Positions 36,857 through 62,760 of a stretch of 64,000 nucleotides of DNA are shown one piece after another. Each line of letters starts with the position of its first letter. Position 1 is the stretch's first letter. The position numbers and the translations under genes were made by a program. Source of the DNA: the human T2T-CHM13v2.0 reference genome, Homo sapiens; contig CP068257.2 in assembly GCA_009914755.4 (NCBI GenBank), positions 6,432,001-6,496,000 on the forward strand, in the 5' to 3' direction. The notes below the pieces were generated by a model. The model was given only the letters and a program-made list of their open reading frames with translations, had not been told where the DNA came from and searched no databases.

Positions 36857-39435
36857 GTTTGGAATGGAGTGAATTGCAATAGAAAGGATTTGAATGAACC
36901 CGAGGGCAGTGTAGTGGAATGGAGTGGAATGGAATTGAATGGAGTGGAATTTGGTCAACCCGAGTGTAATGTAATGGAATAGAGTGGAATGGAATGGATT
37001 TGAATTCACCCGACTGGAATGAAATGGAATGGAAAGGAATGGAAGAGAATGGAATGTATTCAACCCGTGTGGAATGGAATGGAATGGAGTGGAAACGAAT
37101 GGAACGGAACAGATAGGAATTGAATTAACCCCTGTGGAATGGAATGGAATGGAGTGGAATCGAATGGAATAGAATGGCGTGGAATAGAAAGGAATTGAAT
37201 TAACCCAAGTGGAATGGAATTGAAAGGAATGGAATGGACTGGAATGGAATGGAATGGAATGGAATAGAATGCAATTGAATCAACCCGAGTGGAATGGAGC
37301 GGAATGAAATGGAATGGAATGGAATGCAATGGAATGCAACGGAAAAGATTGGGACTGATTTAACACGAGTGGAATGGAATGGAATGGTGTGGAATAGAAT
37401 GGAATGCTATGGAATAGAGGGGAATGGAATAGAATGGAATGGAATGGAATGGAGTTGAATGGATTAGAATGGAATTGAATAAACCCTAGTGGAATGGAAT
37501 GGAATGGAAAGGAATTTATTGGAATTGAATCAACTCGAATGGAATTAAATGCAATGGAACGGAATGGAATGGAATTGAATCAACCAAAGTGGAATGGAAT
37601 GGAATGGAATGGAATGGAATGGAATAGAATGGAAAGCAATGAAATGGAAAGGAATGGAATGAAATGGAATGGATTGGAATGGAATCAATCCGAGTGCAAT
37701 GGAATGGAAAGGAATGGAATGAAAAGGAAAGGAATGGAATGGAATGGAAAGGAATGGAATGGAATAGAATGCAATTGAATAAACCCAAGTGGAATGCAAT
37801 GGAATGGAATGGTATGGAAAGGAAAGGAATGGAATGGAATAGAATGGAATGGAATCAAACCGAATGGAATGGAGTGGAATGGAATGAATTGGAATAGAAA
37901 TGTATTGCATTAACATGAGTGGAATGGAATGGAATGGAATGGAATAGAACAGAATGCAATTGAATAAACCCGAGTGGAATGGAATGGAATGGAATAGAAA
38001 GGAATGGAATGGAATAGAATGGATTTGAATCAACCCCGAGTGGAACAGAATGGGATGGGATGGAATGGAATGGAATGGAATGGAAAGGAAATGAATGGAG
38101 TGGAATAGAATGGAATGGAATGGAATTGAATGGAAAGGACTGGAATGGAACAGATAGGAATTGAAACAACCCCTGTGGAATGGAATGGAATGGAGGGGAA
38201 TCGAATGGAATGGAATGGAGTGGAATAGAAAGGAATTGAATCAACACAAGTGGAATGGAATTGAAAGGAATGGAATGGAATTGAATCAACCCGAGTGGAA
38301 TTGAAGAGAATGGAATGGAATGGAATGGAATGGAATGGAATGCAATGGAATAGAATGGAATTGAATCAACCCACGTGGTATGGAATGGAATGGAATGGAA
38401 AGGAATGGAATGGAGTGGAATAGAACGGAATGGAATGGAATGGAATGGAATACAATGGAATAGAATGCAATAGAATGGAATTAAATCAACTCCCTTGTGA
38501 AATGGAAGGGAATGGAATTGAATGGAATGGAATGGAATGGAGTGCAGTGGAATGGAATGGAAGGGAATGGAAAGGAAAGGAATGTAATGTAATGTAATGG
38601 AATGGAATCAACACGAATGGAATCAATGGAATTGAATGGAATGGAATAGAACGTAGTGAAATACAAGGGAGTGGAATTGAATCAACCCGACTGTAAAGGA
38701 ATGGAATGGAATGGAACGGAATAGAATTGAATTAAATTAACCTGAGTGGAATGGAATGGAAGGGAATGGAGTGGAATGGAATGGAATGGAATAGAATGGA
38801 ATTCAATCAACCCGAGTGGAATGTAATGTAATGGAATGGAATGGAATAGAATGGATTTGAATTAACACCGAGTGGAATGTGATGGAATGGTATGGAATGG
38901 CATGGAATGGAATGGAATGGAATGTAATTGAATGGAATGGAATAGAATGGAATTGAATCAACCAGAGTGGAATGGAATATAATGGAATGGAATGGAATGG
39001 AATGGAATGGAATGGAATGAAATGGAACAAACCCGAGTGGAATGGAATGGAATGGAATGGAATGGAATGGAATGGAATGGAACGGAATGGAATAGACTGG
39101 AATTCATTTAAAGCGAGTTTAATGGAATGGAATGGTTTGGAATGGAATGGAATGGAATGGAATGGAATGGAATGGAATGGAATGGAATATAATGGTATTT
39201 AATCCACCAGAGTGGATTGGAATGGAATGGAATGGAATGGAATGGAATGGAATGGAATGGAATGGAATGGAATGGAATTGAATGCAATGGAACAGAATGG
39301 AATCGAATCAACCCGAGAGGAATGGAATTGAATGGAATGGAATGGAATGGAATGGAATATAATGGAATTGAGTCAACCGGAGTGGAATTGAATGGAATGG
39401 AATGGAATGGAATGGAATGGAATTGAATGAAATGG

Positions 39436-42400
39436 AATGGATTGGTATAGAATGGAATTTAAACTACTCGATTGGAATGGAATGGAATGGAATGGAAAGG
39501 AATGGAATGGAATGGAATAGAATTGAATGGAATCAACCCGAGTGGAATGGAATGGAATGGAATGCAATGGAATAGAATGGAATTGAATCAACCCGTGTGG
39601 AATGGAATCGATTGGAATGGAATGGAATGGAATGGAATGGAATGGAATGGAATGGAATAGAATGGAATTGAATCAACCCGAGTGAAAAGGAATGGAGTGG
39701 AATGGAATGGAAAGGAATGGAATGGAATGGAATGGAATGGAATGGAAATGAATCAACCCGAGTGGGTTTCAATGGAATGGAATGAAAGGAAGGGAATGGA
39801 GGGGAATGGAATAGAATGGAATCGAATGGAAAGGAAAGTAATGGAATCTACCCGAGTAGAATGGAATGGAATGGAATGGAATGGAATGGAATAGAATGGA
39901 ATTGAATCAACCCGAGCAGAATGGAACGGAATGGAATTGAATGGAAAGGAATGGAATGGAATGGCATAGAATGGAATTGAATCAACCGAAATGGAATGGA
40001 ATGGAATGGAATGGAGTGGAATGGAATGGAATGGAATGGAATAGAATGGAATTGAATGAACATGAGCGGAATGGAATGGAATGGAATGGAATGGAATGGA
40101 ATTGAATCAATCCGAGTGGAGTGGAATGGAATGGCATGGAATGGAATGGAATGGAATGGAATGGAGTTAAATGGAATGCAATGGAATAGAATGGAATTGA
40201 ATCAACCAGTGTGGAATGGAATGGAATGGAATGGAATGGAATGGAATGGAATGGAGAGGAATGGAATAGAATGGAACTGAATCAACCCGAGTGGAAAGGA
40301 ATGTAATGGAATGGAATTAAATGGAAGTGAATCAACCCGAGTGGAATTAAATGGAATGGAATGGAAAGGAAGAGAATGGAATGGAATCGAATGGAAAGGA
40401 AAGTAATGGAATCGACCCGAGTAGAATGGAATGGAATGGAATGGAATAGAATGGAATTGAATCAACCCGAGTGGAATTGAACGGAATGGAATAGAATGGA
40501 ATAGAATAGAATTGAATTAACCTGAGTGGAATGGAATGGAAAAGAATGGAGTGGAATGGAATGGAATGGAATGGAATAGAATGGAATTGAATCAAGCCGA
40601 GAGGAATGTAATGTAATGTAATGGAATGGAATAGAATGGATTTGAATCAACACCGAGTGGAATGGTATGGAATGGTATGGAATGGAATGGAACGGAATGT
40701 AACTGAATGGAACGGATTAGAAAGGAATTGAATCAACCCGAGTGGAATGGAATGGAATGGAATGCAATGGAATGAAAGAGACTGGAATTCATTTAGACGG
40801 AGTTTAATGGAATGGAATGGTATGGAATGGAATGGTATGGAATGGAATGGAATGGAATGGAATGGAATGGAATGGAATGGAATATAATGGTATTTAATCA
40901 ACCCGAGTGGATCGGAATGGAATGGAATGGAATGGAACAGAATGGAATCGAATCAACCCGAGAGGAATGGAATTGAATGGAATGGAATGGAATGGAATGG
41001 AATATAATGGAATTGAGTCAACCGGAGTGGAATGGAATGGAATGGAATGGAATTGAATGAAATGGAATGGACTGGTATAGAATGGAGTTGAAACTACTCG
41101 ATTGGAATAGAATGGAATGGAATGGAATAGAATTGAATGGAATCAAACCGAGTGGAATGGAATGGAATGGAATGGAATGGAATGGAATGGAATGGAATGG
41201 AATAGAGGTAAATGGAATGCAATGGAACAGAATGGAATTGAGTCAACGCGTATGGAATGGAATGGATTGGAATGGAATGGAATGGAATGGAATAGAATGG
41301 AATTGAATCAACCCGAGTGGAAAGGAATGGAATGGAATGGAATGGAATGGAACGGAAATGAATCAACCCGAGTGGAATTCATTGGAATGGAATGGAAAAG
41401 AAGGGAATGGAGTGTAATGGAATGGAATGGAATCGAATGGAAAGGAAAGTAATGGAATCTACCCGAGTAGAATGGAATGGAATGGAATAGAACGGAATTG
41501 AATCAACCCGAGCAGAATGGAATGGAACGGAATGGAGTGGAAGGGAATGGAGTGGAATGGAATGGAATGAACACGAGTGGAATGGAATGGAATGGAATGG
41601 AATGGAATGGAATGGTTTAGAATGGAATTGAGTCAATCCAGGTGGAATGGAATGGAATGGCATGGAATGGAATAGAATGGAACTGAATCAACCCGAGTGG
41701 AATGGAATGGAATGGAATGGCATGGAATGGAATGGAAGGGAATGGAATGGAATGGAATGGAATGCAATGGAATTGAATCAACCCGAGTGAAATGGAATGG
41801 AATGGAATGGAAAGCGAAGGGATGGAATGGAATGGAATGGAATGGAATCAACCCGAATGGAATGCAGTGGAATAGAATGCTATGGGGTGGAATGGAATGG
41901 AATGGATTGCAATGTAATGAAATGCAATAGAATGGAATTGAATCAACCCAAGTGGAATGGAATGGAATGCAATGGAATGGAATCGAATGCGATAGAATTG
42001 AATTGAATTAACCTGAATGGAATGGAATGGAATGGAATGCAATGGAATGGAATTGAATCAACCCGAGTGGAATGGAATGGATTGGAATGGAATGGAAGGG
42101 AATGGAATGGAATAGAAATGAACCAACCCGAGTGGAATGGAATGGAAAGGAATGGAATGTAATGGAATGCAATGGAATGCAATGGAATGGAATGGAATGG
42201 AATGGAATGGAATGGAATGGAATGGATTGGAATGTGGTGGAATGGAATAGACTGGAGTTGAATCAACCCGAGTGGAATGGAATGGAATGAAATGGAATGG
42301 AATGGAATCAACCCGAGTGGAAAGGAATGGAATGGAATACAATTCAATGGAATGGAATGGAATGGAATGGAATCAACCCGAATGGAATGGAATGGAATTG

Positions 42401-45400
42401 AATGGAATGGAATGGAATAAAGTGGAATGGAATTTAATTAACCTTAGTGGAATGCAATGGAATGGATTGGAATGGAATGGAATGGAATGGAATCAATCCC
42501 AGTGGAATGGAAAGGCATGGATTGGAATGGAATAGAATGGAATGCAATGGAATGGAATGGAATGGAATGGAATGGATTGGAATGCAATGGAATGGAATGG
42601 AATGGAATGGAATGGAATGGATTGGAATGCAATGGAATGGAATGGAATGGAATGGATTGGAATGTAATGGAATGGTGTAGAATGGAATTGAAACAACTCG
42701 ATTGGAATGCAGTGGAATGTAATGGAATGGAATGGAATGGAATGGAATGGAATGGAATGGATTGGAATGGAATAGAATGGGATTGTATCCACCCGAATGG
42801 AATGGAATTGAATGGAATGGAATGGTATGCAATGGAAAAGAATGGAATTGAATCAACCCGTCTGGAATGGCATGGAATGGAAGGGAATGGAATGGAATGG
42901 AAGGGAATGGAAAGGAATAGAATGCAATTGAATCAACTCGAATGGAATGGAATGGAATGGAATCGAATTGAATCAACCCGAGTGGAATGGAATGGAATGG
43001 AACAGAATGGAATGGAATGGAATGGAAAGGAATGGAATAGAACGGAATTGAATCAACCTGAGTGGAATGGAAAGCAATGGAATGGAATGGAGTGGAATGG
43101 AATGGAATGGAGTGGAATGGAATGGAACGGATTGGAATGGAATGGAATGGAATGGAACGGATTGGAATGGAATGGAATGGAATGGAATGTATTTGAATGG
43201 AATTGAATCAACCCGAGTGGAATGGAATGGAATAGCATGGAATGGAATGGAATAGAATGGAATGGAATGGAATGGAATGGAATGGAATGGAATGGAATGG
43301 AATGAAATGGAATGGATTGGTATAGAATGGAATTTAAACTACTCGATTGGAATGGAATGGAATGGAATGGAAAGGAATGGAATGGAATGGAATAGAATTG
43401 AATGGAATCAACCCGAGTGGAATGGAATGGAATGGAATGGAATGGAATGCAATGGAATAGAATGGAATTGAATCAACCCGTGTGGAATGGAATCGATTGG
43501 AATGGAATGGAATGGAATGGAATGGAATGGAATGGAATGGAATAGAATGGAATTGAATCAACCCGAGTGAAAAGGAATGGAGTGGAATGGAATGGAAAGG
43601 AATGGAATGGAATGGAATGGAATGGAATGGAAATGAATCAACCCGAGTGGGTTTCAATGGAATGGAATGAAAGGAAGGGAATGGAGGGGAATGGAATAGA
43701 ATGGAATCGAATGGAAAGGAAAGTAATGGAATCTACCCGAGTAGAATGGAATGGAATGGAATGGAATGGAATGGAATAGAATGGAATTGAATCAACCCGA
43801 GCAGAATGGAACGGAATGGAATTGAATGGAAAGGAATGGAATGGAATGGCATAGAATGGAATTGAATCAACCGAAATGGAATGGAATGGAATGGAATGGA
43901 GTGGAATGGAATGGAATGGAATGGAATAGAATGGAATTGAATGAACATGAGCGGAATGGAATGGAATGGAATGGAATGGAATGGAATTGAATCAATCCGA
44001 GTGGAGTGGAATGGAATGGCATGGAATGGAATGGAATGGAATGGAATGGAGTTAAATGGAATGCAATGGAATAGAATGGAATTGAATCAACCAGTGTGGA
44101 ATGGAATGGAATGGAATGGAATGGAATGGAATGGAATGGAGAGGAATGGAATAGAATGGAACTGAATCAACCCGAGTGGAAAGGAATGTAATGGAATGGA
44201 ATTAAATGGAAGTGAATCAACCCGAGTGGAATTAAATGGAATGGAATGGAAAGGAAGAGAATGGAATGGAATCGAATGGAAAGGAAAGTAATGGAATCGA
44301 CCCGAGTAGAATGGAATGGAATGGAATGGAATAGAATGGAATTGAATCAACCCGAGTGGAATTGAACGGAATGGAATAGAATGGAATAGAATAGAATTGA
44401 ATTAACCTGAGTGGAATGGAATGGAAAAGAATGGAGTGGAATGGAATGGAATGGAATGGAATAGAATGGAATTGAATCAAGCCGAGAGGAATGTAATGTA
44501 ATGTAATGGAATGGAATAGAATGGATTTGAATCAACACCGAGTGGAATGGTATGGAATGGTATGGAATGGAATGGAACGGAATGTAACTGAATGGAACGG
44601 ATTAGAAAGGAATTGAATCAACCCGAGTGGAATGGAATGGAATGGAATGCAATGGAATGAAAGAGACTGGAATTCATTTAGACGGAGTTTAATGGAATGG
44701 AATGGTATGGAATGGAATGGTATGGAATGGAATGGAATGGAATGGAATGGAATGGAATGGAATGGAATATAATGGTATTTAATCAACCCGAGTGGATCGG
44801 AATGGAATGGAATGGAATGGAACAGAATGGAATCGAATCAACCCGAGAGGAATGGAATTGAATGGAATGGAATGGAATGGAATGGAATATAATGGAATTG
44901 AGTCAACCGGAGTGGAATGGAATGGAATGGAATGGAATTGAATGAAATGGAATGGACTGGTATAGAATGGAGTTGAAACTACTCGATTGGAATAGAATGG
45001 AATGGAATGGAATAGAATTGAATGGAATCAAACCGAGTGGAATGGAATGGAATGGAATGGAATGGAATGGAATGGAATGGAATGGAATAGAGGTAAATGG
45101 AATGCAATGGAACAGAATGGAATTGAGTCAACGCGTATGGAATGGAATGGATTGGAATGGAATGGAATGGAATGGAATAGAATGGAATTGAATCAACCCG
45201 AGTGGAAAGGAATGGAATGGAATGGAATGGAATGGAACGGAAATGAATCAACCCGAGTGGAATTCATTGGAATGGAATGGAAAAGAAGGGAATGGAGTGT
45301 AATGGAATGGAATGGAATCGAATGGAAAGGAAAGTAATGGAATCTACCCGAGTAGAATGGAATGGAATGGAATAGAACGGAATTGAATCAACCCGAGCAG

Positions 45401-47210
45401 AATGGAATGGAACGGAATGGAGTGGAAGGGAATGGAGTGGAATGGAATGGAATGAACACGAGTGGAATGGAATGGAATGGAATGGAATGGAATGGAATGG
45501 TTTAGAATGGAATTGAGTCAATCCAGGTGGAATGGAATGGAATGGCATGGAATGGAATAGAATGGAACTGAATCAACCCGAGTGGAATGGAATGGAATGG
45601 AATGGCATGGAATGGAATGGAAGGGAATGGAATGGAATGGAATGGAATGCAATGGAATTGAATCAACCCGAGTGAAATGGAATGGAATGGAATGGAAAGC
45701 GAAGGGATGGAATGGAATGGAATGGAATGGAATCAACCCGAATGGAATGCAGTGGAATAGAATGCTATGGGGTGGAATGGAATGGAATGGATTGCAATGT
45801 AATGAAATGCAATAGAATGGAATTGAATCAACCCAAGTGGAATGGAATGGAATGCAATGGAATGGAATCGAATGCGATAGAATTGAATTGAATTAACCTG
45901 AATGGAATGGAATGGAATGGAATGCAATGGAATGGAATTGAATCAACCCGAGTGGAATGGAATGGATTGGAATGGAATGGAAGGGAATGGAATGGAATAG
46001 AAATGAACCAACCCGAGTGGAATGGAATGGAAAGGAATGGAATGTAATGGAATGCAATGGAATGCAATGGAATGGAATGGAATGGAATGGAATGGAATGG
46101 AATGGAATGGATTGGAATGTGGTGGAATGGAATAGACTGGAGTTGAATCAACCCGAGTGGAATGGAATGGAATGAAATGGAATGGAATGGAATCAACCCG
46201 AGTGGAAAGGAATGGAATGGAATACAATTCAATGGAATGGAATGGAATGGAATGGAATCAACCCGAATGGAATGGAATGGAATTGAATGGAATGGAATGG
46301 AATAAAGTGGAATGGAATTTAATTAACCTTAGTGGAATGCAATGGAATGGATTGGAATGGAATGGAATGGAATGGAATCAATCCCAGTGGAATGGAAAGG
46401 CATGGATTGGAATGGAATAGAATGGAATGCAATGGAATGGAATGGAATGGAATGGAATGGATTGGAATGCAATGGAATGGAATGGAATGGAATGGAATGG
46501 AATGGATTGGAATGCAATGGAATGGAATGGAATGGAATGGATTGGAATGTAATGGAATGGTGTAGAATGGAATTGAAACAACTCGATTGGAATGCAGTGG
46601 AATGTAATGGAATGGAATGGAATGGAATGGAATGGAATGGAATGGAATGGATTGGAATGGAATAGAATGGGATTGTATCCACCCGAATGGAATGGAATTG
46701 AATGGAATGGAATGGTATGCAATGGAAAAGAATGGAATTGAATCAACCCGTCTGGAATGGCATGGAATGGAAGGGAATGGAATGGAATGGAAGGGAATGG
46801 AAAGGAATAGAATGCAATTGAATCAACTCGAATGGAATGGAATGGAATGGAATCGAATTGAATCAACCCGAGTGGAATGGAATGGAATGGAACAGAATGG
46901 AATGGAATGGAATGGAAAGGAATGGAATAGAACGGAATTGAATCAACCTGAGTGGAATGGAAAGCAATGGAATGGAATGGAGTGGAATGGAATGGAATGG
47001 AGTGGAATGGAATGGAACGGATTGGAATGGAATGGAATGGAATGGAACGGATTGGAATGGAATGGAATGGAATGGAATGTATTTGAATGGAATTGAATCA
47101 ACCCGAGTGGAATGGAATGGAATAGCATGGAATGGAATGGAATAGAATGGAATGGAATGGAATGGAATGGAATGGAATGGAATGGAATGGAATAGACTGG
47201 AATTCATTTA
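39436..47210. repeat. Tandem duplication, 2 copies of a ~3885-bp HSat3 higher-order unit (39436-43321, 43321-47210), ~99+% identity, with nested ~1.7-kb internal sub-repeat
   Basis: Constant offset of 3885 bp (39682..39894 = 43567..43779; 41117..41452 = 45002..45337; 42447..42680 = 46332..46565), shifting to 3890 after a 5-bp indel near 42700. The landmark ggattggtatagaatggaatttaaactactcgattgg lies at 39430 and 43315, with a diverged third copy near 47540. The landmark gactggaattcatttaRaNcgagt recurs at 39108, 40783, 44668 and 47197. Confidence 0.88.
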
Positions 47211-48399
47211 AACCGAGTGTAATGGAATGGAATGGTATGGAATGGAATGGAATGGTATGGAATGGAATGGAATGGTATGGAATAGAATGGAATGGAATGG
47301 AATGGAATGGAATATAATGGTATTTAATCAACCCGAGTGGATCGGAATGGAATGGAATGGAATGGAACAGAATGGAATCGAGTCAACCCAAGAGGAACGG
47401 AATTGAATGGAATTGAATGGAATGGAAAGGAATGGAATGGAATGGAATATAATGGAAATGAGTCAACTGGAGTGGAATAGAATGGAATGGAATGGAATGG
47501 ATTGGAATGGAATGGAATGGAAAGGAATGAAATGGAATGGAGTGGTATAGAATGGAATTGAAACTACTCGATTGGAATGGAATGGAATGGAATAGACTTG
47601 AATGGAATCAACCCTAGTGGAATGGAATGGAATGGAATGGAATCAAATAGAATGGAGGTGAATGGAATGCAATGGAATAGAATGGAATTGAATCAACCCA
47701 TGTGGAATGGAATGGATTGGACTGGAATGGAACGGAATGGAACGGAATAGAATGGAATTGAATCAACCATAGTGGAAAGGAATGGAATGGAATGGAATGG
47801 AAATGAATCAACACGAGTGGAATTCATTGGAATGGAATGGAAAGGAAGGGAATTGAGTGGAATGGAATGGAATGGAGTGGAATGGAATGGAATCAAATGG
47901 AAAGGAAAGTAATGGAATCGACCCAAGTAGAATGGAATAGAATGGCATAGAATGGAATTGAATCAACCCGAGCGGAATTGAACGGAATTGAAGGGAATGG
48001 AATGGAATGGAACGGAATGGAATGGAATCAACGCAAGTGGAATGGAATGGAATGGTTGGACCACAATAGATTGAAATCGAACCAACACGAGTGGAATGGA
48101 ATGGAATTGAATGGAATGCAATAGAATGGAATGGAATCCACTAGAGTGGAATGGAATGGAATGGAGTGGAGTGCAATGGAGTGTGGTGGAATGCAATGGA
48201 GTGGAGTGGAATAGAATGGAGTAGGGTGGAATTCACTGGAACGGAGTGGAATGTACTGGATTTGACTGGAATGGAGTTGAGTGGAGTGGAATGGAGTTGA
48301 CTGGAGTGGCATGGAATGGAGTGGAGTGGAGTGCAATGGAATACAGTAGACTGGAGTGGAGTGAATTGGTGTTGAATGGAAAGGAATGGAATGAAATGG

Positions 48400-48462
48400 A
48401 TACTTAGATTGTGCCACTGCACTAAAACCTGTGTGACAGTAGGGGAACCTGTCGAAAGAAAG
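48400..48462 (+). repeat. Alu 3'-end-derived segment embedded in satellite (short form)
   Basis: cttagattgtgccactgcactaaaacctgtgtgacagtaggggaacctgtcgaaagaaagg. Confidence 0.7.
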
Positions 48463-48729
48463 GAGTGGAATGGGAAGGAGTGTAGTGTAGTGGAGTGGAG
48501 TGGAGTGGAATTGGAGATTAATATAATGGAGTGGAGTGGAATGGAATGGAGTGGAGTGGAATGGATTGCAGGGGAGTGGGGTGGAGAGCAGTGGAATGGA
48601 GTGGAGTGGAATGGAATGGAATGGAATGGAATGGAGTGGTCTGGAATGGAATGGAGTTGCGTGGAGTGGAGTTCAGTGGACTTGAATGGAATGGAATGGA
48701 ACTGAGTGAAATGGAATGGAATGGAATTG

Positions 48730-48792
48730 GTGCTGAGATTGTGCCACTGCGCTACAACCTGTGTGATAGAGGGAGATCCTGTCAAAAGAAAG
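48730..48792 (+). repeat. Alu 3'-end-derived segment (short form)
   Basis: gtgctgagattgtgccactgcgctacaacctgtgtgatagagggagatcctgtcaaaagaaag. Confidence 0.75.
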
Positions 48793-49689
48793 AATTCGAA
48801 TGGGAAGAAGTGGAGTGGATTGGAGTTGAGTGGAATGGAATGGAATTGATTGGAGTGAAATGGAATGGAATGAATGGTAAAGGAATGGAATGGAGTGGAG
48901 TATGGTGGAATGGAATGGAGTGGAGCGTAGTGAAGTGCAGTTGAGTGGAATGGATTGGAGTGGAGTGAAATGCAGTGGAAAGGAGTTGAGCGCAATTTAC
49001 CGGAAAGCAGTGGAATGGAATGGGGAGGAATGGAAAGGCATGGAGTAGAATGGAGTGTAGTGGATTGGAGTGGAGTGGAATTGACTGGAGTGGACTGGAG
49101 TGCATTGGAGTTGGGTGGAATGGAATGGAATTCAATGGCCTGCAGTGGAATGGAATGCAGTGGTGTTGAGTGTAGTGGAGTGGAATGGAACAGAATGGAA
49201 TGGAATGGAAAGGAGGAGTGGAGTGGAGTGGAATTCAGTGGAGTGGATTGCAGTGGAATGGAATGGAATGGATTGGAATGGAGATGAGTGGAGTTGAAAG
49301 AAGTGGAGTGGAATGGAGTGCAGAGGAGTGGATAGGAGTGCAATGGATTGCAGTGGAATGGAATGGCATAAAGTGGAGTGGAATTTAGTGGAATGGAGTG
49401 GAATGGACTGGACTGGAATGGAATGGAATGGAGTGGAGTGGAATGGAATGGAGTGGAGTGGAATGGAATAGAGTGGAGTGGAGTGGAATGCAGTGGCGTG
49501 GAGTGGAATAGAGTGAAGAGGAGTGGATGTAGTGAAGTGAAGTGGAATGAAATGGGGTGGAGTGGAGTGGAATTGAATGGATTGGAGTGGAGTGCAAAGG
49601 AGTCGAATGGAAACGGATGCAAAGGAATGTAGTGGAATGGAGTGGATTTGACTGGAATGGAATGGAATGGAATGGAATGGAATGGAATC

Positions 49690-49752
49690 GCTGTTGAGAT
49701 CGTGTCACTGTGCTACAGACTGTGTGACAGAGGGAGATCCTCTGGAAAGAAA
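49690..49752 (+). repeat. Alu 3'-end-derived segment (short form)
   Basis: gctgttgagatcgtgtcactgtgctacagactgtgtgacagagggagatcctctggaaagaaagg. Confidence 0.7.
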
Positions 49753-50179
49753 GGAGTGGAATGGGATGGTGTCGAGTGGATTGCAGTGGAGTGGAGTGAA
49801 ATGGAGTGGAATGGATTGGTGTGGAGTGTAATGGAGTGGAGTGGAGTGGACTGGAATGGAGTGGATTGGGTTGGAATGGAGTGCAGTGGAGTGGAATCAA
49901 GTGGAATGGAATGGGGTGGAGTGTGGTGGAATGGAATGGATTGGATTGGAGTGGAGTGGAGTGGAGCTTAATGTTATGGAGTGGAGTGGAATGGATTGGA
50001 ATGGACTGGAATGGAATGGATTGGAGTGGAGTGGAGAGCAGTGGAGTGGAGTGGAGTGGAATGGAATGGAATGGAGTGGCATGCAGTGGAGTGGAAGGGA
50101 GTGGAGTGGACTGGAGTGGAAAGGAGGTGAATGAAATGGAATGGAATGGAATGGAATGGAATGGAATGGAATGGAATGG

Positions 50180-50242
50180 GTGATGAGATTGTGCCACTGC
50201 ATCAAAACCTGTGTGACAGAGGGAGATCCTGTCAAAAGAAAG
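50180..50242 (+). repeat. Alu 3'-end-derived segment (short form)
   Basis: gtgatgagattgtgccactgcatcaaaacctgtgtgacagagggagatcctgtcaaaagaaag. Confidence 0.75.
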
Positions 50243-50629
50243 AATTGTAATCGGAAGCAGTGGAGTGGATTGGAGTTGAGTGAAACGGAATGGAATGGAG
50301 TGGAGTGGAGTGGAATGGAGTGGAGTGGAGTTGAATGGAATGTGGTGGAGTGGAATGAAGTCGAGTGGAATGGAGTGGAATGGAATGTGATGGAATGGAA
50401 TGGAATGGATTATGGTGGAGTGGAGTGGATTGAAGTGGAGTAGAGTGGATTGTAGTGGAATGAAATGGGATGGAATGGAATGCCATCGAGTGCAGTGGAG
50501 TGGAGTGGACTGGAGTGGAGGAGAGTGGAATGGAGTCGAGTGGAATAGAATGGAGTGGAACAGAATGGAATGGAATGCAATGGAATGGAATGCAAAGGAA
50601 TGGAATGCAATTAAATAGAATGGAATGGA

Positions 50630-50710
50630 ATGGTGAAATGAAATGTGAGCTGAATTGGTGCCACTGCACGCCAGCCTGGGTGACAGAGTGAGATGCTGTC
50701 GAAAGAAAGA
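50630..50710 (+). repeat. Alu 3'-end-derived segment (long form)
   Basis: gtgaaatgaaatgtgagctgaattggtgccactgcacgccagcctgggtgacagagtgagatgctgtcgaaagaaag. Confidence 0.8.
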
Positions 50711-50945
50711 AATGGAATGGAATGGAGTGGAGTGGAGTGGTGTGGAGTGGAGTGGTGTGGAGTGGAATGGAATGGGATGGACTATAATGGAATGGATTGC
50801 TGTGGATTGGAGTGGTGGAGAGTGGAATGGAGTCGAGTGGAATGGAATGGAATGGACTGGAGTGGAATGCAGTGGAATGGAATGGAAAGGAGTGGAGTGG
50901 AGTGCAGTGGAGTGGAGTGGAGTGGAATGGAATGGAATGGATTAG

Positions 50946-51020
50946 CGAAATGAAATGTAAGCTGAGATTATGTCACTGTACTCCAGAATGGGTGACAGAG
51001 TGACATCCTGTGGAATGTAA
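50946..51020 (+). repeat. Alu 3'-end-derived segment (long form, diverged)
   Basis: cgaaatgaaatgtaagctgagattatgtcactgtactccagaatgggtgacagagtgacatcctgtggaatgtaagg. Confidence 0.7.
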
Positions 51021-51471
51021 GGAATGGAATGGATTGGAGTGGAATGGTTTGGAATGTAGTGGAGTGGATAGGAGTGAAGTGGAGTAGAATAGAGTGGAGA
51101 GGAATGGAATGGCAGGGAGTGGATAGGAGTGGACGGGAGTGGAGTAGAATATAATGGAATGGGATGGAATCGAATGGAATGAAATGGAGGGGAGTGGAGT
51201 GTTGGGGAGAGGAGTGGAGTGGTATGGAATTGGATGGAATTGAATGTAGAGGAGTGGAGTGGAGAGGAGTGGAGTAGAGTGGATTGGTATGGAATTGGAT
51301 GGAATTGAATGTAGAGGAGTGGAGTGGAGAGGAGTGGAGTAGAGTGGAGTGGAATGGAACGAAATTGAATGAAGTGGAGCCAAGTGGAGTGGACTGGAGT
51401 GGAGTGGAATGGAATATAGTGGAATGGAAACGAATGGAATGGAAAGGAATGTAATGCAATTGAATGGAATG

Positions 51472-51548
51472 ATAAAATGAAATATGAGTTGAGATTGTAA
51501 CACTGCACTCCAGCCATTGTCACAGAGTGAAATACTGTCGAAAGAAAG
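51472..51548 (+). repeat. Alu 3'-end-derived segment (long form, diverged)
   Basis: gataaaatgaaatatgagttgagattgtaacactgcactccagccattgtcacagagtgaaatactgtcgaaagaaagg. Confidence 0.7.
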
Positions 51549-51842
51549 GAATGGAATGGACAGGTGTGGAATGGAATGGAATGGAGCGGAGTGGAGTGGA
51601 TTATAGTGGAATGGAGTGGAATGGAATGGGATGGAATGGGATGGAGTGGAGTGGAGTGGAGTGTAATGGAACGGTATGGTATGGTAAGGAACGGAATGGA
51701 ATGGAATGGAATGGAATGCAGTGGAGTGGAGTGGAGTTCGCAGGAGTGGAATTAAATGGGATGGAATAGAATTGAATGCATTGCAATGGAATGGAATGCA
51801 ATGGAATGAAATGCAATGGAATGCAATGGAATGGAATGTTGA

Positions 51843-51916
51843 ATTGAAATGTGAGCTGAGATACTGCCACTGCACTCCAGCCTGGGTGACAGAGTGAGAT
51901 CCTCTCGAATGAGAGG
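51843..51916 (+). repeat. Alu 3'-end-derived segment (long form)
   Basis: attgaaatgtgagctgagatactgccactgcactccagcctgggtgacagagtgagatcctctcgaatgagagg. Confidence 0.8.
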
Positions 51917-52196
51917 AATGGAATGGAATGGAGTGAAGTGGAATGGAATGGAATGGAATGGAATGGAATGGAATGGAATGGAGTGGAGTGGAGTGGAATG
52001 GAATAGAATGGAGTGGAATGGAATGTGATGGAGTGGAAGGAATGGAGTGGAGGGGAGTGGAGTGGACGGGAGTGGAGTGGAGAGAAATGGAGTGAAATGG
52101 AATGGGATGGAATGGAATGGGGGAGGGGAGGGGAGTGGAGTGGAATTGAGTGTAGTGGGATAGAATGGAATGGAAAGGAAAGAAATACAATGGAAT

Positions 52197-52276
52197 GGTG
52201 AAATGAAATGTGAGCTGAGATTGTGCCCCTGTATTCCAGCCATTTTTGACACAGTGATATCCCGTCGGAAGAAGGG
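52197..52276 (+). repeat. Alu 3'-end-derived segment (long form, diverged)
   Basis: gtgaaatgaaatgtgagctgagattgtgcccctgtattccagccatttttgacacagtgatatcccgtcggaagaaggg. Confidence 0.7.
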
Positions 52277-52387
52277 AATGGAATGGAATGGGGTGGAATG
52301 GAATGGAATGGAATGGAATGGGGTTTAATGGAATGGAATGGAATGGAATGGAATGGAATGGAATGGAATGGAATGGAATGGAATGGA

Positions 52388-52464
52388 GAAATTAAATGTG
52401 AGCTAAGATTGTGCCACTGCACTCCAGTCTGGGTGACAGAGAGAGATCCATTTAGAAATAAAGG
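52388..52464 (+). repeat. Alu 3'-end-derived segment (long form)
   Basis: gaaattaaatgtgagctaagattgtgccactgcactccagtctgggtgacagagagagatccatttagaaataaagg. Confidence 0.8.
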
Positions 52465-52594
52465 AATGGAATGGAATGTAGTAGAATGGAATGACTGGAG
52501 TGGCGTGGAGTGGAGTGGAGTGGCGTGGAGTGGAGTTGAGTGGAGTGGAGTGGAAAGGAATTTAGGGGAATGGAATGGAATGGAATGGAATGGT

Positions 52595-52672
52595 GAAATG
52601 AAATGTGAGCTGGGATTTTGTAATTGCACTCCATTTTGGGTGACAGAGTGAGATCCTGTCGAAAGAAAATAT
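52595..52672 (+). repeat. Alu 3'-end-derived segment (long form, diverged)
   Basis: gtgaaatgaaatgtgagctgggattttgtaattgcactccattttgggtgacagagtgagatcctgtcgaaagaaaat. Confidence 0.7.
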
Positions 52673-52809
52673 TGGAATGGAATGGAGTGTAGTGGAATTG
52701 AAAAGAATGGAGTGGACTGGAGTGGAGTGGAGTGGAATGGAATGGAAGGGAATGGAATGGAATGGAATGGAAGGGAAAGGAAAGGAATGGAATGGAAGGT
52801 AAGGGAATG

Positions 52810-52888
52810 GGGAAATGAAATGTGAGCTGACATTGTGGCACTGCACTCCAGCCTCGGTGACCGAGTGAGATCCTGTCGAAAGAAAATA
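52810..52888 (+). repeat. Alu 3'-end-derived segment (long form)
   Basis: gggaaatgaaatgtgagctgacattgtggcactgcactccagcctcggtgaccgagtgagatcctgtcgaaagaaaat. Confidence 0.8.
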
Positions 52889-53089
52889 TTGGAATGGAAT
52901 GGAGTTCAATGTAACGGAATAGAGTAAAGTGGAGTGGAACGGAATGTGATGGAATGAAATGTAGTGGAGTGGAGTAGAGTGGAACGGAATGGAGTGGAGT
53001 GGAGTGGAATGGAGTGGAGTGCAGTGGAGTGGAGTGCAGTGGAATTCATTGGAATGGAATGCAGTGGAATGGAATGAAAAGGAATTTAA

Positions 53090-53152
53090 CAGGTGCTGAG
53101 ATTGTGCTACTGCACTACAGCCTGTGTGACAGAGGTAGATCCTGTCGAAAAA
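53090..53152 (+). repeat. Alu 3'-end-derived segment (short form)
   Basis: ggtgctgagattgtgctactgcactacagcctgtgtgacagaggtagatcctgtcgaaaaatagg. Confidence 0.75.
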
Positions 53153-53835
53153 TAGGCGTGCAATGGGTTGGAGCAGAGTGGAGTGGAGTGGAATGGAGTG
53201 GAGTGGAGTGGACTGGAGTGGAGTGGAATGGAATGAAGTGGAGTGGAATGGACTGGAGTGGAATGGAATGGAATGGAGTGGAATGGAATGGAATGCAGTG
53301 GAGTGGAGTGGAACGGACTGGAGTGGAGTGGAATGGAGTGGAGTGGAGTAGAGTGGAATGGGGTGGAGAGGAGTGGAGTGGAGTGGAATGGAATGGAATG
53401 CAATGCAATGCAGTGGAGTGGAGTGGAATGGAGTGGCATGGAATGGAATGGAGTGGAGTGGAATGGAATGGATTGCAGTGGAGTGGAATGGAATGGAGTG
53501 GAGTGGAATGGACTGAAGTGAAATGGAATCGAATGGAGTGGAATGGAATGGAGTGGAGTGGAGTGGAGAGGAATGGAATGGAATGGAATGGAATGGAATG
53601 GAATGGAATGGATGGAATGCAATTATGTGGAGCGGAACACAGTGGAGAGGAGTGGAAAGGAATGGAATGGAATAGAGTGGAGTGGATTGCAGTGAAGTGG
53701 AGAAAAGTGCAATGTAGTGGAATGGAATCAGATGTAATGGAATGTAGTACACTGGAGTGGAGTGAAGTGGAACGAACAGGAATGGAACGGAATGGAACGG
53801 AACAGAATGGAACAGAACGGAACGGAATGGAATGG

Positions 53836-53898
53836 GTGCTGAGATTGTGCCACTGCACTACAGCCTGCATGACAGAGAGAGATATTGTAGAAAGAAAG
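53836..53898 (+). repeat. Alu 3'-end-derived segment (short form)
   Basis: gtgctgagattgtgccactgcactacagcctgcatgacagagagagatattgtagaaagaaagg. Confidence 0.75.
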
Positions 53899-54431
53899 GA
53901 GTGGAATGGGATGGGGGAAGTGGAGTTTAGTGGAGTGGAATGGAGTGGAGTTGAATGGACTGGAATGGAGTGGAGTGGAGTGGAACGGAATGCAGTGGAG
54001 TGGAATGGAGTGGAGTGGAATGGAGTAGAGTGGAGTGGAGTGGAATTCGGTGGAGTGGAATGGAGTAGAATGGAATGCAATGGAATGGAATGGAGTCGAC
54101 TGGATTGGTGTGGAGTGGAATGAAGTGGATTGAAGTAGAATTAGCGGAATGGAATGGGATGGAATGGAATGGAATGAAGGGGAGTGGAGTGGGGTGGAGT
54201 GGAGTGCAGTGGAATTGAGCGGAATGGAATGGGATGGAGTGGATGGAGTGGAATGGAGTGGAGCGCAGTAGAGTGAATAGGAATGGAATGGAGTGGAATG
54301 GAATTGAATGTAGTGGAATGTAGTGGAGTGGAGTGGAATGGAGTGGGATGGAATGGAATTGAATTGAATGGAATGGAATTGAACGGAATGCAATGGAATG
54401 CAATGGAATAGTATGCAATGCAATGGAAAGT

Positions 54432-54506
54432 TGACATGTAATGTGAGCTGAGATTGTGCCACTGTACTCCAGCCTCGGTGATACAGTGATATCCTGTCAA
54501 AAGAAA
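54432..54506 (+). repeat. Alu 3'-end-derived segment (long form)
   Basis: ttgacatgtaatgtgagctgagattgtgccactgtactccagcctcggtgatacagtgatatcctgtcaaaagaaagg. Confidence 0.8.
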
Positions 54507-54756
54507 GGAATGGAATGCAATGGAGTGAAATGGAATGGAAGGGAAGGGAATGGAATGCAGGCGAGTGGAGTGGAGTGGAGTTGAATGGAATGGTATGGTA
54601 TGGAATGGAATGGAATGGAATGCAGTGGAGTGGAGTGGAGCTCGCAGGACTGGAATGGAATGGGATGGAATGGAATTGAATGCATTACAGTGGAATGGAA
54701 TGCAATGGAAAGGAATGAAATGACATGCAATGGAACGGAATAGAATGGAATGGAAT

Positions 54757-54834
54757 GGTGAAATGAAATTTGAGCTGAAATACTGCCACTGCACTACAGC
54801 CTGGGTGACAGAATGAGATCCTCTCAAAAGAGAA
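54757..54834 (+). repeat. Alu 3'-end-derived segment (long form)
   Basis: gtgaaatgaaatttgagctgaaatactgccactgcactacagcctgggtgacagaatgagatcctctcaaaagagaag. Confidence 0.8.
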
Positions 54835-55107
54835 GAATGGAATGGAATGGATTGGAATGGAATGGAATGGAATGGAATGGAATGGAGTGGAGTGGAGTGG
54901 AGTGGAGTGGAGTGGAGTGGAATGGAATAGAATGGAGTGGAATGGAATGGGATGGAGTGGAAGGAATGGAGTGGAGGGGAGTGGAGTGGAGAGAAATGGA
55001 GTGAAATGGAATGGGATGGAATGGAATGGAGTGGAGTGGAGTGGAGTTGATTGGAGTGGAGTGGAATGGAGTGGAATGCAATAGAATGGAATGGTATGGA
55101 ATGGAAT

Positions 55108-55129
55108 GGGGGAGGGGAGGGGAGGGGAG
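55108..55129 (+). repeat. (GGGGA)4 G-tract (paralogous site 52119-52135 has (GGGGA)3)
   Basis: gggggaggggaggggaggggag, read directly. Confidence 0.85.
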
Positions 55130-55195
55130 TGGAGTGGAGTGGAATTGAGTGTAGTGGCACAGCATGGAATGGAAAGGAAAGGAATACGATGGAAT

Positions 55196-55275
55196 GGTGA
55201 AATGAAATGTGAGCTGAGATTGTGTCCCTGTATTCCAGCCTTTTTTGACAGAGAGATATCCCATCGAAAGAAAGG
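55196..55275 (+). repeat. Alu 3'-end-derived segment (long form, paralog of 52197)
   Basis: gtgaaatgaaatgtgagctgagattgtgtccctgtattccagccttttttgacagagagatatcccatcgaaagaaagg. Confidence 0.7.
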
Positions 55276-55382
55276 AATGGAATGGAATGGGGTGGAATGG
55301 AATGGGGTGGAATGGAATGGGGTGGAATGGAATGGAATGGAATGGAATGGAATGGAATGGAATGGAATGGAATGGAATGGAG

Positions 55383-55458
55383 AAATTAAATGTGAGCTAA
55401 GATTGTGCCAATGCCCTCCAGTCAGGATTACAGATTGAGATCCATTTCGAAATAAAGG
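55383..55458 (+). repeat. Alu 3'-end-derived segment (long form, paralog of 52388)
   Basis: gaaattaaatgtgagctaagattgtgccaatgccctccagtcaggattacagattgagatccatttcgaaataaagg. Confidence 0.7.
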
Positions 55459-55580
55459 AATGGAATGGAATGGAGTAGAATGGAATGACTGGAGTGGCGT
55501 GGAGTGGAGTCGAGTAGCATGCAGTGGAGTTGAGTGGAGTGGAATGGAATTTCGGGGAATGGAATGGAATGGAACGGAAT

Positions 55581-55660
55581 GGTGAAATGAAATGTGAGCT
55601 GGGATTTTGTAATTGCACTCCATTTTGGGTGACAGAGTGAGATCCTGTCAAAAGAAAATA
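55581..55660 (+). repeat. Alu 3'-end-derived segment (long form, paralog of 52595)
   Basis: gtgaaatgaaatgtgagctgggattttgtaattgcactccattttgggtgacagagtgagatcctgtcaaaagaaaat. Confidence 0.7.
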
Positions 55661-55758
55661 TTGAAATGGAATGGAGTGAAAATGAATGGAATAGAATGGA
55701 GTGGAGTGCAGTGGAGTGGAGTGGAGTGGAATGGAATGGAAGGGAATGGAATGGAATG

Positions 55759-55793
55759 GAAGGGAAGGGAAGGGAAGGGAAGGGAAGGGAAAG
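55759..55793 (+). repeat. (GGGAA)7 variant-pentamer run (the paralogous site ~52760-52790 has only ~3 units)
   Basis: gaagggaagggaagggaagggaagggaagggaaagg, read directly. Confidence 0.85.
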
Positions 55794-55819
55794 GAATGGA
55801 ATGGAAGGGAAGGGAATGA

Positions 55820-55898
55820 GGAAATGAAATGTGAGCTGACATTGTGGCACTGCACTCCAACCTGGGTGACACAGTGAGATCCTGTCGAAAGAAAATAT
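55820..55898 (+). repeat. Alu 3'-end-derived segment (long form, paralog of 52810)
   Basis: ggaaatgaaatgtgagctgacattgtggcactgcactccaacctgggtgacacagtgagatcctgtcgaaagaaaat. Confidence 0.8.
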
Positions 55899-56110
55899 TG
55901 GAATGCAATGGACTGCAATGTAATGGAATACAGTAAAGTGGAGTGGAAAGGAGTGGAATGGAATGTGATGGAATGAAATGGACTGGAGTGGAGTGGAGTA
56001 GAGTGGAACGGAATGGAAAGGAGTGGAGTGGAGTGGAGTGGAGTGCAGTGGAATGAGGTGCAGTGGAATTCATTGGAATGGAACGGAATGGAATGAAAAG
56101 GAATGCAATA

Positions 56111-56172
56111 GGTGTTGAGATTGTGCTACTGCACTACAGCCTGTGTGACAGAGGCAGATCCTGTCAAAAGAT
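56111..56172 (+). repeat. Alu 3'-end-derived segment (short form, paralog of 53090)
   Basis: ggtgttgagattgtgctactgcactacagcctgtgtgacagaggcagatcctgtcaaaagatagg. Confidence 0.75.
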
Positions 56173-56543
56173 AGGCGTGGAATAGGTTGGAGTACAGTGG
56201 AGTGGAGAGGAGTGGAATGGAGTGGAGTGGACTGGAGTGGAATGGAATGGATTGGAGTGGAATGGAAAGGACTGGAGTGGAGTGGAATGGAATGAAGTGG
56301 AGTGGAGTGGAGTGGAGTGGAATGGAGTGGAGTGGAATGGAATGGAATGGAGTGGAGTGGAGTGGAGTGGAATGGAGTTGAGTGGAGTGGAATGGAGTGG
56401 CATGGAATGTAAAGGAATGGAGTGGAATGGCATGGACTGGAGTGGAGTGGAATGGAAGGGAGTGGAGTGGAATGGAATGGAATGGAGTGGAATGGAATGG
56501 AGTGGTGAGGAGTGGACTGGAGAGGAATGGAATGGAATGGAAT

Positions 56544-56577
56544 GGCATGGCATGGCATGACATGGCATGGCATGGAA
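56544..56577 (+). repeat. (GGCAT)6 variant-pentamer run
   Basis: atggcatggcatggcatgacatggcatggcatgg, read directly. Confidence 0.8.
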
Positions 56578-56804
56578 TGGAATGGAATGGAATGGAATGG
56601 AATGGAATTAAGTGGAGTGGAGCAGAGTGGAGAGGAGTGGAAAGGAGTGGAATGGAATGGAGTGGAATGGAGTACAGTGAAGTGGAGAGAAGTGCAATGA
56701 AGTGGAATGGAATCGGATGTAATGGAATGTAGTACAGTGTAGTGGAGTTAAGTGGAACGAAATGGAATGGAACGGGACGGAACGGAATGGAACGGAATAG
56801 AATG

Positions 56805-56868
56805 GGTGCTGAGATTGTGCCACTGCACTACAGCCTGTGTGACAGAGAGAGATACTGTAGAAAGAAAG
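56805..56868 (+). repeat. Alu 3'-end-derived segment (short form, paralog of 53836)
   Basis: gtgctgagattgtgccactgcactacagcctgtgtgacagagagagatactgtagaaagaaagg. Confidence 0.75.
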
Positions 56869-59292: not shown

Positions 59293-59366
59293 TATGGAAT
59301 GGAATGGAGTGAAATGGAATGGAATGGAATGGAATGGAATGGAATGGAATGGAATGGAATGGAATA

Positions 59367-62204: not shown

Positions 62205-62760
<556 letters not shown>

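What the first reader, a model, noticed from the sequence alone, without database searches (positions are those of the whole stretch)
39436..47210. Near-identical 3885-bp tandem duplication with nested 1.7-kb sub-repeat (recent HOR expansion or collapse-prone region)
Two adjacent copies match at a constant 3885-bp offset over ~3.9 kb, with only one 5-bp (one-pentamer) indel. This is far more similar than neighbouring satellite, so it is a very recent duplication. A degraded third copy follows (~47200-47600 resembles 39090-39440), and a ~1.7-kb internal periodicity is marked by gactggaattcatttaRaNcgagt at 39108, 40783, 44668 and 47197. Such nested, young higher-order structure is where copy number varies between people and where assemblies collapse or over-expand.
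Basis: seen in the sequence. Interest (0 to 1): 0.5.

Follow-up and report, generated by a model that had tools for sequence, protein, structure and literature searches.

The report
Recent two-copy duplication in satellite 3
A 3.9-kb stretch of human-type satellite III (GGAAT-repeat) DNA has been copied once, head to tail, so recently that the two copies show no base substitutions; this kind of local turnover in such satellites has already been described, so the finding is real but ordinary.

Summary
Copy A (39425-43299) and copy B (43300-47189; the match runs on to 47193) align over about 3,880 bp with zero substitutions. There are two indels, not one: +10 bp and +5 bp in copy B, each a change in the length of a pure (GGAAT)n tract. 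The offset therefore runs 3875, then 3885, then 3890. Identity falls to the roughly 80% satellite background at both ends, so there are exactly two copies.

The sequence is HSat3 at the edge of an array. A GGAGT-rich satellite carrying Alu fragments follows, then a full Alu, then unique DNA.

The "1.7-kb sub-repeat" is real but old. It is the eroded trace of an abundant, homogeneous ~1.75-kb EcoRI HSat3 unit, which I recovered from human-contaminant metagenome contigs. That unit is probably the 1748-bp pE-1/HSat3A2 acrocentric family. The "degraded third copy" is simply the next old unit, not a third 3.9-kb copy.

The new junction joins old-unit position ~1753 to position ~330, inside perfect (GGAAT)n tracts. 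This points to one unequal exchange or template switch, not a higher-order-repeat (HOR) expansion. The window holds a second, perfect duplication (period 2511) and an older one (~2818).

Copy-number variation and the assembly-artefact possibility could not be tested. Low interest.

The parts
39425..43299 (+). Copy A of the young tandem duplication (3,875 bp)
   Evidence: Global alignment with 0 substitutions against copy B; exact-match blocks.
43300..47189 (+). Copy B of the young tandem duplication (3,890 bp). Identity to the sequence after copy A runs 4 bp further, to 47193.
43259..43303 (+). (GGAAT)9 tract holding the only novel junction (43299|43300). The exchange point is confined to GAAT at 43300-43303, between the discriminating sites 39424T/43299G and 43304G/47194A.
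   Evidence: Boundary sequences and list of perfect tracts.
39394..39423 (+). (GGAAT)6 tract at the left boundary. 39390-39428 matches 43265-43303 at 38 of 39 positions, giving the short homology available for the exchange.
47149..47193 (+). (GGAAT)9 tract at the right end of copy B, followed directly by the marker that starts old unit U3.
43419..43448 (+). Indel 1: (GGAAT)6 in copy B versus (GGAAT)4 at 39544-39563 in copy A (+10 bp).
46609..46648 (+). Indel 2: (GGAAT)8 in copy B versus (GGAAT)7 at 42724-42758 in copy A (+5 bp).
37353..39094 (+). U0: one well-kept 1,742-bp copy of the abundant ~1.75-kb EcoRI HSat3 unit, lying upstream of the duplication. Its start marker is degenerate and lacks about 6 bp.
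   Evidence: 88.2% identity to the 1,753-bp consensus over its full length. In register throughout, 94-98% in 38250-38850. Sequence at 37345-37380.
39095..40779 (+). U1: eroded old unit (1,685 bp) that starts with the marker at 39095-39118. The young duplication starts inside it, at about old-unit position 330.
   Evidence: Marker; rare-k-mer diagonals P1~P2; partial register.
40780..43304 (+). U2: eroded and expanded old unit (2,525 bp) that starts with the marker at 40780-40803. The marker is duplicated at 44665-44688 in copy B. The last ~250 bp match the end of the old-unit consensus (positions ~1493-1753, 86-91%).
47195..47975 (+). P3, the start of old unit U3 (marker at 47195-47218).
   Evidence: P3 versus P1 78% and versus P2 82% including gaps, or 92-95% counting substitutions only. 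Background is 74-76% with sd 1.5. Rare k-mers. In register with the consensus for about 400 bp.

Best explanation
The region is ordinary human-type satellite III (HSat3): a (GGAAT)n repeat interrupted by CAACCCGAGT-type 10-mers, near the edge of an array.

Two layers of repetition are superimposed.
- Old layer: eroded units of a ~1.75-kb nested tandem repeat, each beginning with the marker GACTGGAATTCATTTA. This repeat is abundant and homogeneous elsewhere in the human genome. It is probably the 1748-bp EcoRI 'pE-1'/HSat3A2 family of acrocentric chromosomes 13, 14 and 21.
- Young layer: a single event copied 3.88 kb once, head to tail.

The event joined the end of a perfect (GGAAT)9 tract to a point just after a (GGAAT)6 tract 3.88 kb upstream. 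The two sites share 38 of 39 bases. The most likely mechanism is an unequal sister-chromatid or homologue exchange, or a replication template switch, seeded by short pentamer homology. It was out of register with the old 1.75-kb unit.

Afterwards, two pure (GGAAT)n tracts changed length by 2 units and by 1 unit through slippage. No function is implied; this is neutral structural turnover of satellite DNA.

Shown: the anatomy, the identity, the junction and the old layer. Inferred: the mechanism, the age (under about 0.8 Myr at 95% if the rate is 1.25e-8 per bp per generation and there has been no gene conversion), the family name and the chromosome.
For: - HSat3 identity. Tandem Repeats Finder (TRF) finds period 5 with consensus GGAAT over 38001-48400. 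Unit A has 53% of its bases in GGAAT and 5.4 CAACNCGAR 10-mers per kb. An Alu and unique DNA lie at the window's end.
- Young duplication. 0 substitutions in about 3,880 bp and two tract-length indels. Exactly two copies, with flanks at background.
- Only 43299|43300 is a new junction. The left boundary is continuous relative to paralogue P2: the rare-k-mer diagonal 39094-39536 to 40779-41146 crosses 39425. The right boundary restores old-unit register: 43050-43304 matches consensus positions 1493-1753, and 47195 then matches position 1.
- Breakpoints lie in perfect (GGAAT)n tracts, which cover only 12.3% of the region. The independent perfect 2511-bp duplication has its junction in a 40-bp (TGGAA)8 tract.
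- Old layer. 35 human-contaminant metagenome contigs carry the marker. Five units of 1723-1783 bp (two of exactly 1748 bp) are 94-99% identical to each other. Each has one EcoRI site and no KpnI site, and the best window match is 37358-39073 at 88%.
- Family name. Altemose 2014 Table S1 lists pE-1 at 1748 bp, on chr13/14/21, in HSat3A2.
- Known kind. The T2T centromere paper describes kb-scale nested tandem repeats in HSat2,3 'evolving and expanding hyper-locally'.
Against: - No reads or second haplotype were available, so an assembly over-expansion cannot be excluded.
- The strict exchange window is only 4 bp (GAAT), because of the T/G difference at 39424/43299. Homologous exchange needs either mismatch correction or a later mutation; otherwise the event was microhomology-mediated.
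- 39 bp of homology is short for classical non-allelic homologous recombination (my own knowledge).
- The link to pE-1/HSat3A2 rests only on unit length, the EcoRI site and the clone's name. No sequence or 24-mer comparison was possible.
- In-register similarity of U1 and U2 to the consensus (77-78%) is barely above the off-register background of 75-77%.
Confidence: 0.8

Rival explanations
1. Assembly artefact. The assembler placed one real 3.9-kb segment twice (over-expansion), or placed two alleles in tandem. The two pentamer-tract length differences would then be read or polishing errors, or allelic differences.
For: - Copies with zero substitutions that differ only in short-repeat tract lengths are what a false duplication could look like.
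- A second, completely perfect tandem duplication lies in the same window, so a systematic artefact is conceivable.
Against: - The junction is seamless and falls in a short homology tract, as expected of a biological exchange.
- A third duplication in the window has accumulated 14 substitutions. Such duplications therefore do occur and age in this array.
- 10-bp and 5-bp unit changes are not typical homopolymer-type read errors (my own knowledge).
- Hyper-local expansion in HSat arrays is reported in a validated assembly.
Confidence: 0.1
2. An old tandem duplicate recently homogenised by gene conversion, rather than a new duplication.
For: Concerted evolution is common in satellites (general knowledge). 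The window shows older duplicates of similar size, such as period ~2818.
Against: - Identity is perfect over the whole unit and ends exactly at the unit boundaries, giving 2.00 copies. A 3.9-kb conversion tract coinciding with both ends would be a coincidence.
- There is no residual intermediate-identity (90-97%) zone at either edge.
- Removing one copy restores continuity of the older 1.75-kb register.
Confidence: 0.05
3. One reading: a young higher-order repeat array in expansion, with nested 1.7-kb subunits and a decaying third copy.
For: - A marker recurs at 39095, 40780, 44665 and 47195.
- The segment after copy B resembles the segment before copy A.
Against: - There are only two copies.
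- The 'third copy' matches sequence outside the duplicated unit and is about 80% identical, so it belongs to the old layer.
- The young unit (3.88 kb) is not a multiple of the old unit and is out of register with it.
- The 44665 marker is simply the copy of the one at 40780.
Confidence: 0.05

Closest known systems
Nested tandem repeats (NTRs) and hyper-local expansions in HSat2,3 arrays (Altemose et al., T2T centromere maps; bioRxiv 10.1101/2021.07.12.452052)
   Same: A kb-scale unit built from diverged (CATTC/GGAAT)n. Periodicity differs from place to place within one array: this window has local periods of 2511, ~2818 and ~3885. Transposable-element fragments are embedded in the neighbouring satellite.
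   Different: Only two copies are present, so this is a single duplication event and not yet a repeat array.
pE-1 satellite III subfamily (1748-bp unit; chr13/14/21; HSat3A2), Bandyopadhyay et al. 2001 as tabulated by Altemose et al. 2014 Table S1
   Same: The old layer derives from a homogeneous unit of about 1.75 kb. Two of five recovered units are exactly 1748 bp, and each has one EcoRI site. Window unit U0 is 1,742 bp and 88% identical to the consensus.
   Different: The duplicated segment itself is only about 77-78% similar to that consensus and only partly in register. No direct sequence comparison with pE-1 was possible.
Alpha-satellite higher-order repeats
   Same: Tandem, head-to-tail, high identity between copies; thought to arise by unequal exchange.
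   Different: There is no discrete 171-bp-like monomer, no integer-monomer unit, and two copies rather than hundreds or thousands. The term HOR does not fit.
DYZ1 (HSat3A6) 3.56-kb unit of Yq12
   Same: An HSat3 unit of similar length. A weak 3569-bp diagonal exists at 605-1127.
   Different: DYZ1 is a long homogeneous array with a single period. This window has no array-wide period.
Tandem duplication mediated by short homology or microhomology (unequal sister-chromatid exchange, or replication template switching)
   Same: Head-to-tail copies whose junction lies in a short shared tract: 38/39 bp here, and 40/40 bp in the 2511-bp duplication.
   Different: The mechanism is inferred from the junction sequence only.

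Membership tests
Human satellite III (HSat3) | Base repeat (GGAAT)n / (ATTCC)n | tested here: met
   TRF finds period 5, consensus GGAAT, about 2,080 copies over 38001-48400. 53% of unit A's bases lie in exact GGAAT.
Human satellite III (HSat3) | Interspersed 10-mer CAACCCGAGT (= A/T-TCGGGTTG on the other strand), which distinguishes HSat3 from HSat2 (Prosser 1986; my own knowledge) | tested here: met
   18 exact CAACCCGAGT and 21 CAACNCGAR in unit A, or 5.4 per kb. The motif is absent from the neighbouring 48-62 kb satellite.
Human satellite III (HSat3) | Primate or human genomic context | tested here: met
   A full Alu with poly-A at about 62495-62740, plus Alu fragments. The closest relatives are contigs from human gut and skin metagenomes, interpreted as host contamination. 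The species itself was not proven.
HSat3A2 / pE-1 1748-bp unit | Unit length of about 1748 bp with an EcoRI site | tested here: met
   This applies to the old layer only. Contig units are 1723-1783 bp (two are 1748 bp), each with one GAATTC. Window U0 is 1,742 bp.
HSat3A2 / pE-1 1748-bp unit | Subfamily-specific 24-mers, or sequence identity to the clone | not testable with these tools
   The held copy of Dataset S2 is cut off within subfamily 2A2. No clone sequence was available.
HSat3A2 / pE-1 1748-bp unit | The flagged 3.9-kb unit is made of in-register, recognisable 1.75-kb units | tested here: inconclusive
   In-register tiles occur only at 39095-39600, 40350-41400 and 43050-43304. Overall identity is 77-78% against 75-77% off register.
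Higher-order repeat (alpha-satellite sense) | Unit made of an integer number of discrete, similar-length monomers, repeated many times at high identity | tested here: not met
   Two copies only and no other copy above 85% in the window. There is no discrete monomer. The young unit is out of register with the old one.
Simple tandem (segmental) duplication | Two head-to-tail copies, one novel junction, and flanks unrelated beyond background | tested here: met
Copy-number-variable or collapse-prone locus | Different copy numbers in different haplotypes, or reads that disagree with the assembly | not testable with these tools
   No reads or other haplotypes were available. The junction 48-mer had 0 hits in metagenome contigs, and none of the 35 related contigs comes from this locus (84-93% identity at most).

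The most novel reading that the evidence does not exclude
The three two-copy duplications in this 48-kb stretch have periods of 2511, ~2818 and ~3885 bp. The two youngest both have their junctions in perfect ~40-bp (GGAAT)n tracts. They could therefore record a specific and frequent mode of HSat3 growth: out-of-register exchanges seeded at pure pentamer tracts, with a preferred 2.5-4 kb span. On that reading this locus would be an incipient nested tandem repeat, caught at copy number two and still polymorphic in humans.
Probability: 0.15. Interest if true: 0.3.

Novelty: already known. Interest (0 to 1): 0.12.

Why it matters
It matters little on its own. It is a clean, datable example of how HSat3 arrays turn over: short pure-pentamer tracts act as exchange points, and new kb-scale units are laid over eroded older ones.

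It has some practical use. The 46-mer across the junction differs by one base (G versus T) from the ancestral left boundary. It could be used to genotype presence or absence of the duplication in long-read pangenomes.
- Junction: GAATGGAATGGAATGGAATGGAATGAAATGGAATGGATTGGTATAG
- Ancestral boundary: GAATGGAATGGAATGGAATTGAATGAAATGGAATGGATTGGTATAG

The probable pE-1/HSat3A2 affinity suggests an acrocentric short-arm location. Satellite III there is relevant to Robertsonian translocation breakpoints. That link is contextual and inferred only.

Tried and rejected
- The generic repeat finder on 37-50 kb was swamped by the pentamer, giving 900+ 'copies' per family. I replaced it with rare-k-mer offset histograms and explicit alignments.
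- TRF sees only the 5-bp period, because its maximum period is 500.
- Rfam at gathering thresholds found no hits in the window, not even for the Alu.
- A junction-specific 48-mer gave 0 hits in metagenome contigs. The marker pattern gave 0 hits in bacterial and archaeal genome contigs.
- Subfamily typing with the Altemose 2014 24-mers was not possible. The stored file is sorted by subfamily and cut off within 2A2.
- DYZ1 (3.56 kb) was considered because of a 3569-bp diagonal at 605-1127. I rejected it because there is no array-wide period.
- D15Z1/HSat3A5 (1.8-kb KpnI unit) was considered for the ~1.75-kb unit. I set it aside because neither the consensus nor the window has a KpnI site, whereas there is one EcoRI site per unit and the length matches pE-1.
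- My first tiling script used the wrong end-gap settings and gave meaningless values. It was redone with local alignment.
- Protein, structure and defence-system tools were not used. The region is non-coding satellite.
Full report
**What the window is**

The + strand from 1 to about 48050 is G-rich pentameric satellite (GC about 0.39, GC skew about +0.68). Tandem Repeats Finder gives a 5-bp period with consensus GGAAT over 38001-48400. The pentamers are interrupted by CAACCCGAGT-type 10-mers at about 4-5 per kb. This is the classical signature of human satellite III (HSat3). From 48.05 to 62.5 kb the satellite changes. It becomes GGAGT-rich, loses CAACCCGAGT, and carries about 28 copies of an Alu 3'-end fragment. 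A full Alu with poly-A follows at about 62495-62740, then non-repetitive DNA to 64000. The window therefore covers the edge of a primate, human-type pericentromeric or short-arm HSat3 array.

**Checking the observation**

- A histogram of offsets between rare 21-mers over the whole window has its highest peak at 3885. All 1,676 pairs lie in 39577-42710. Satellite peaks at 3890 (42754-43236) and 3875 (39426-39524) flank it.
- Ungapped identity of 39553-42720 with the sequence 3885 bp downstream is 1.000. The best of all other offsets is 0.736.
- Global alignment of generous flanks shows 39425-43304 aligned to 43300-47193 with no substitutions at all and two insertions in the second copy.
- Both insertions are length changes of pure pentamer tracts: (GGAAT)4 to (GGAAT)6 and (GGAAT)7 to (GGAAT)8.
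- Outside these limits the alignment degrades at once to the roughly 80% typical of any two pieces of this satellite.

The duplication is therefore real and far beyond chance, with exactly two copies.

**The junction**

Only 43299|43300 is a new join.
- The left boundary is ancestral. A diagonal of rare k-mers linking 39094-39536 to the paralogous 40779-41146 crosses 39425 without a break.
- The right boundary is ancestral. 43050-43304 corresponds to the last ~250 positions of an older 1.75-kb unit, and 47195 is position 1 of the next unit.
- The new join lies at the end of a perfect (GGAAT)9 tract. The left boundary lies just after a (GGAAT)6 tract. The two sites share 38 of 39 bases.
- Strictly, the exchange point is confined to GAAT, between a T/G difference (39424/43299) and a G/A difference (43304/47194).
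- Perfect tracts of six or more pentamers cover only 12.3% of this region.
- The other young duplication in the window has a 40-bp perfect (TGGAA)8 tract at all three of its boundaries.

I infer an unequal exchange or a replication template switch seeded by short pentamer homology. The sequence alone cannot say which.

**Age (inference)**

Assume zero differences in 3,880 bp, a rate of 1.25e-8 per bp per generation (my own knowledge) and no gene conversion. The 95% upper bound is then about 31,000 generations, roughly 0.8 Myr, and the median bound is about 0.2 Myr. The two slippage events fit the much higher mutability of pure microsatellite-like tracts.

**The older layer**

It occurs at 39095, 40780, 44665 (the copy of 40780) and 47195, and nowhere else in the window at two or fewer mismatches. 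After removing copy B, rare k-mers still pile up at offsets of about 1.6-1.7, 2.5 and 4.2 kb. They define three paralogous segments: P1 39094-39926, P2 40779-41522 and P3 47194-47973. Pairwise identity is 78-82% counting gaps, or 92-95% counting substitutions only. The random-segment background is 74-76% with sd 1.5.

Searching the marker in public metagenome contigs returned 35 contigs, several labelled as human gut or skin metagenomes. I interpret these as human contamination.
- Five contigs contain two markers 1723-1783 bp apart, two of them exactly 1748 bp.
- Those units are 94-99% identical to one another.
- Their 1,753-bp consensus has one EcoRI site and no KpnI site.
- The consensus matches the window best at 37358-39073, at 88% over its full length.
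- Tiling shows this unit (U0, 37353-39094) in register throughout, reaching 98% identity. U1 (39095-40779), U2 (40780-43304) and U3 (from 47195) are in register only in patches.

The "1.7-kb sub-repeat" is therefore the eroded remnant of an abundant, homogeneous ~1.75-kb HSat3 nested tandem repeat.

Table S1 of Altemose et al. 2014 lists one fully sequenced satellite III clone of exactly this length: pE-1, 1748 bp, chromosomes 13, 14 and 21, subfamily HSat3A2. pE-1 is one of the acrocentric satellite III subfamilies and is deleted in rob(14;21). Identity with pE-1 is probable but rests only on length and the EcoRI site. The 24-mer test could not be run.

- The young 3.88-kb unit begins at about old-unit position 330 of U1, contains all of U2, and ends at an old-unit boundary. 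It is not a multiple of the old unit and is out of register with it.
- The sequence after copy B resembles 39090-39440 because both are starts of old units, not because a third 3.9-kb copy is decaying.
- The structure is not an HOR. The T2T centromere paper reserves "nested tandem repeat" for kb-scale HSat2,3 units. [quoted passage not shown]
- The window shows this directly. It holds a perfect 2,551-bp match at period 2511 (12399-14949 = 14910-17460), an older duplication at period ~2818 with 14 substitutions and 8 pentamer-multiple indels (22488-25346 / 25311-28164), and the 3.9-kb event.

**Rivals**

- Assembly over-expansion cannot be excluded without reads. It is disfavoured by the seamless homology-tract junction, by the non-homopolymer nature of the differences, and by the presence of an aged duplication of the same kind nearby.
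- Gene conversion of an old duplicate is disfavoured. Perfect identity coincides with both unit ends, there is no intermediate-identity fringe, and removing one copy restores the old register.

**Verdict**

This is a real, very recent, two-copy tandem duplication inside HSat3, laid over a relic 1.75-kb repeat. It is a textbook instance of a known process, so interest is low. Population copy-number variation is plausible but untested.

Noticed in passing
window 12399-17460: A second tandem duplication that is completely perfect: 12399-14949 equals 14910-17460 (2,551 bp exact, period 2511). A 40-bp perfect (TGGAA)8 tract sits at all three boundaries. It is cleaner than the flagged one.
   Followed up: partly
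window 22488-28164: An older tandem duplication of period ~2818 (22488-25346 versus 25311-28164), with 14 substitutions and 8 indels that are multiples of 5 bp. This corresponds to roughly 0.5% divergence. GC is slightly higher here, at 0.41.
   Followed up: partly
window 48050-62490: A different satellite: GGAGT-rich (568 GGAGT against 799 GGAAT), no CAACCCGAGT, GC 0.46-0.48. It carries about 28 copies of an Alu 3'-end fragment (GATTGTGCCACTGCACT...) at irregular 300-800 bp spacing. Internal repeats occur at offsets 2989 (86%) and 7413 (92%). It resembles the ACTCC/AATGGAATGGAGTGG pericentromeric repeats, which are said to share many of HSat3A2's pericentromeric locations.
   Followed up: partly
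window 62495-64000: A full-length Alu with a poly-A tail, then non-repetitive AT-rich sequence. This is the array edge, and the unique part could anchor the window to a chromosome.
   Followed up: no
window 37353-39094: A single well-preserved 1,742-bp copy of an abundant ~1.75-kb EcoRI HSat3 unit, flanked by much more eroded sequence. It is 88% identical to the consensus overall and 94-98% in 38250-38850. Its EcoRI-bearing start marker is degenerate.
   Followed up: yes
loci L001-L035 (metagenome contigs): 35 contigs, several labelled as human gut or skin metagenome assemblies, are HSat3 of the 1.75-kb unit family. They are presumably host contamination. None is closer than 93% to the window.
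   Followed up: partly
window 605-1127 and 4174-4696: A short rare-k-mer diagonal at offset 3569, close to the DYZ1 unit length. No array-wide periodicity supports a DYZ1 assignment.
   Followed up: no
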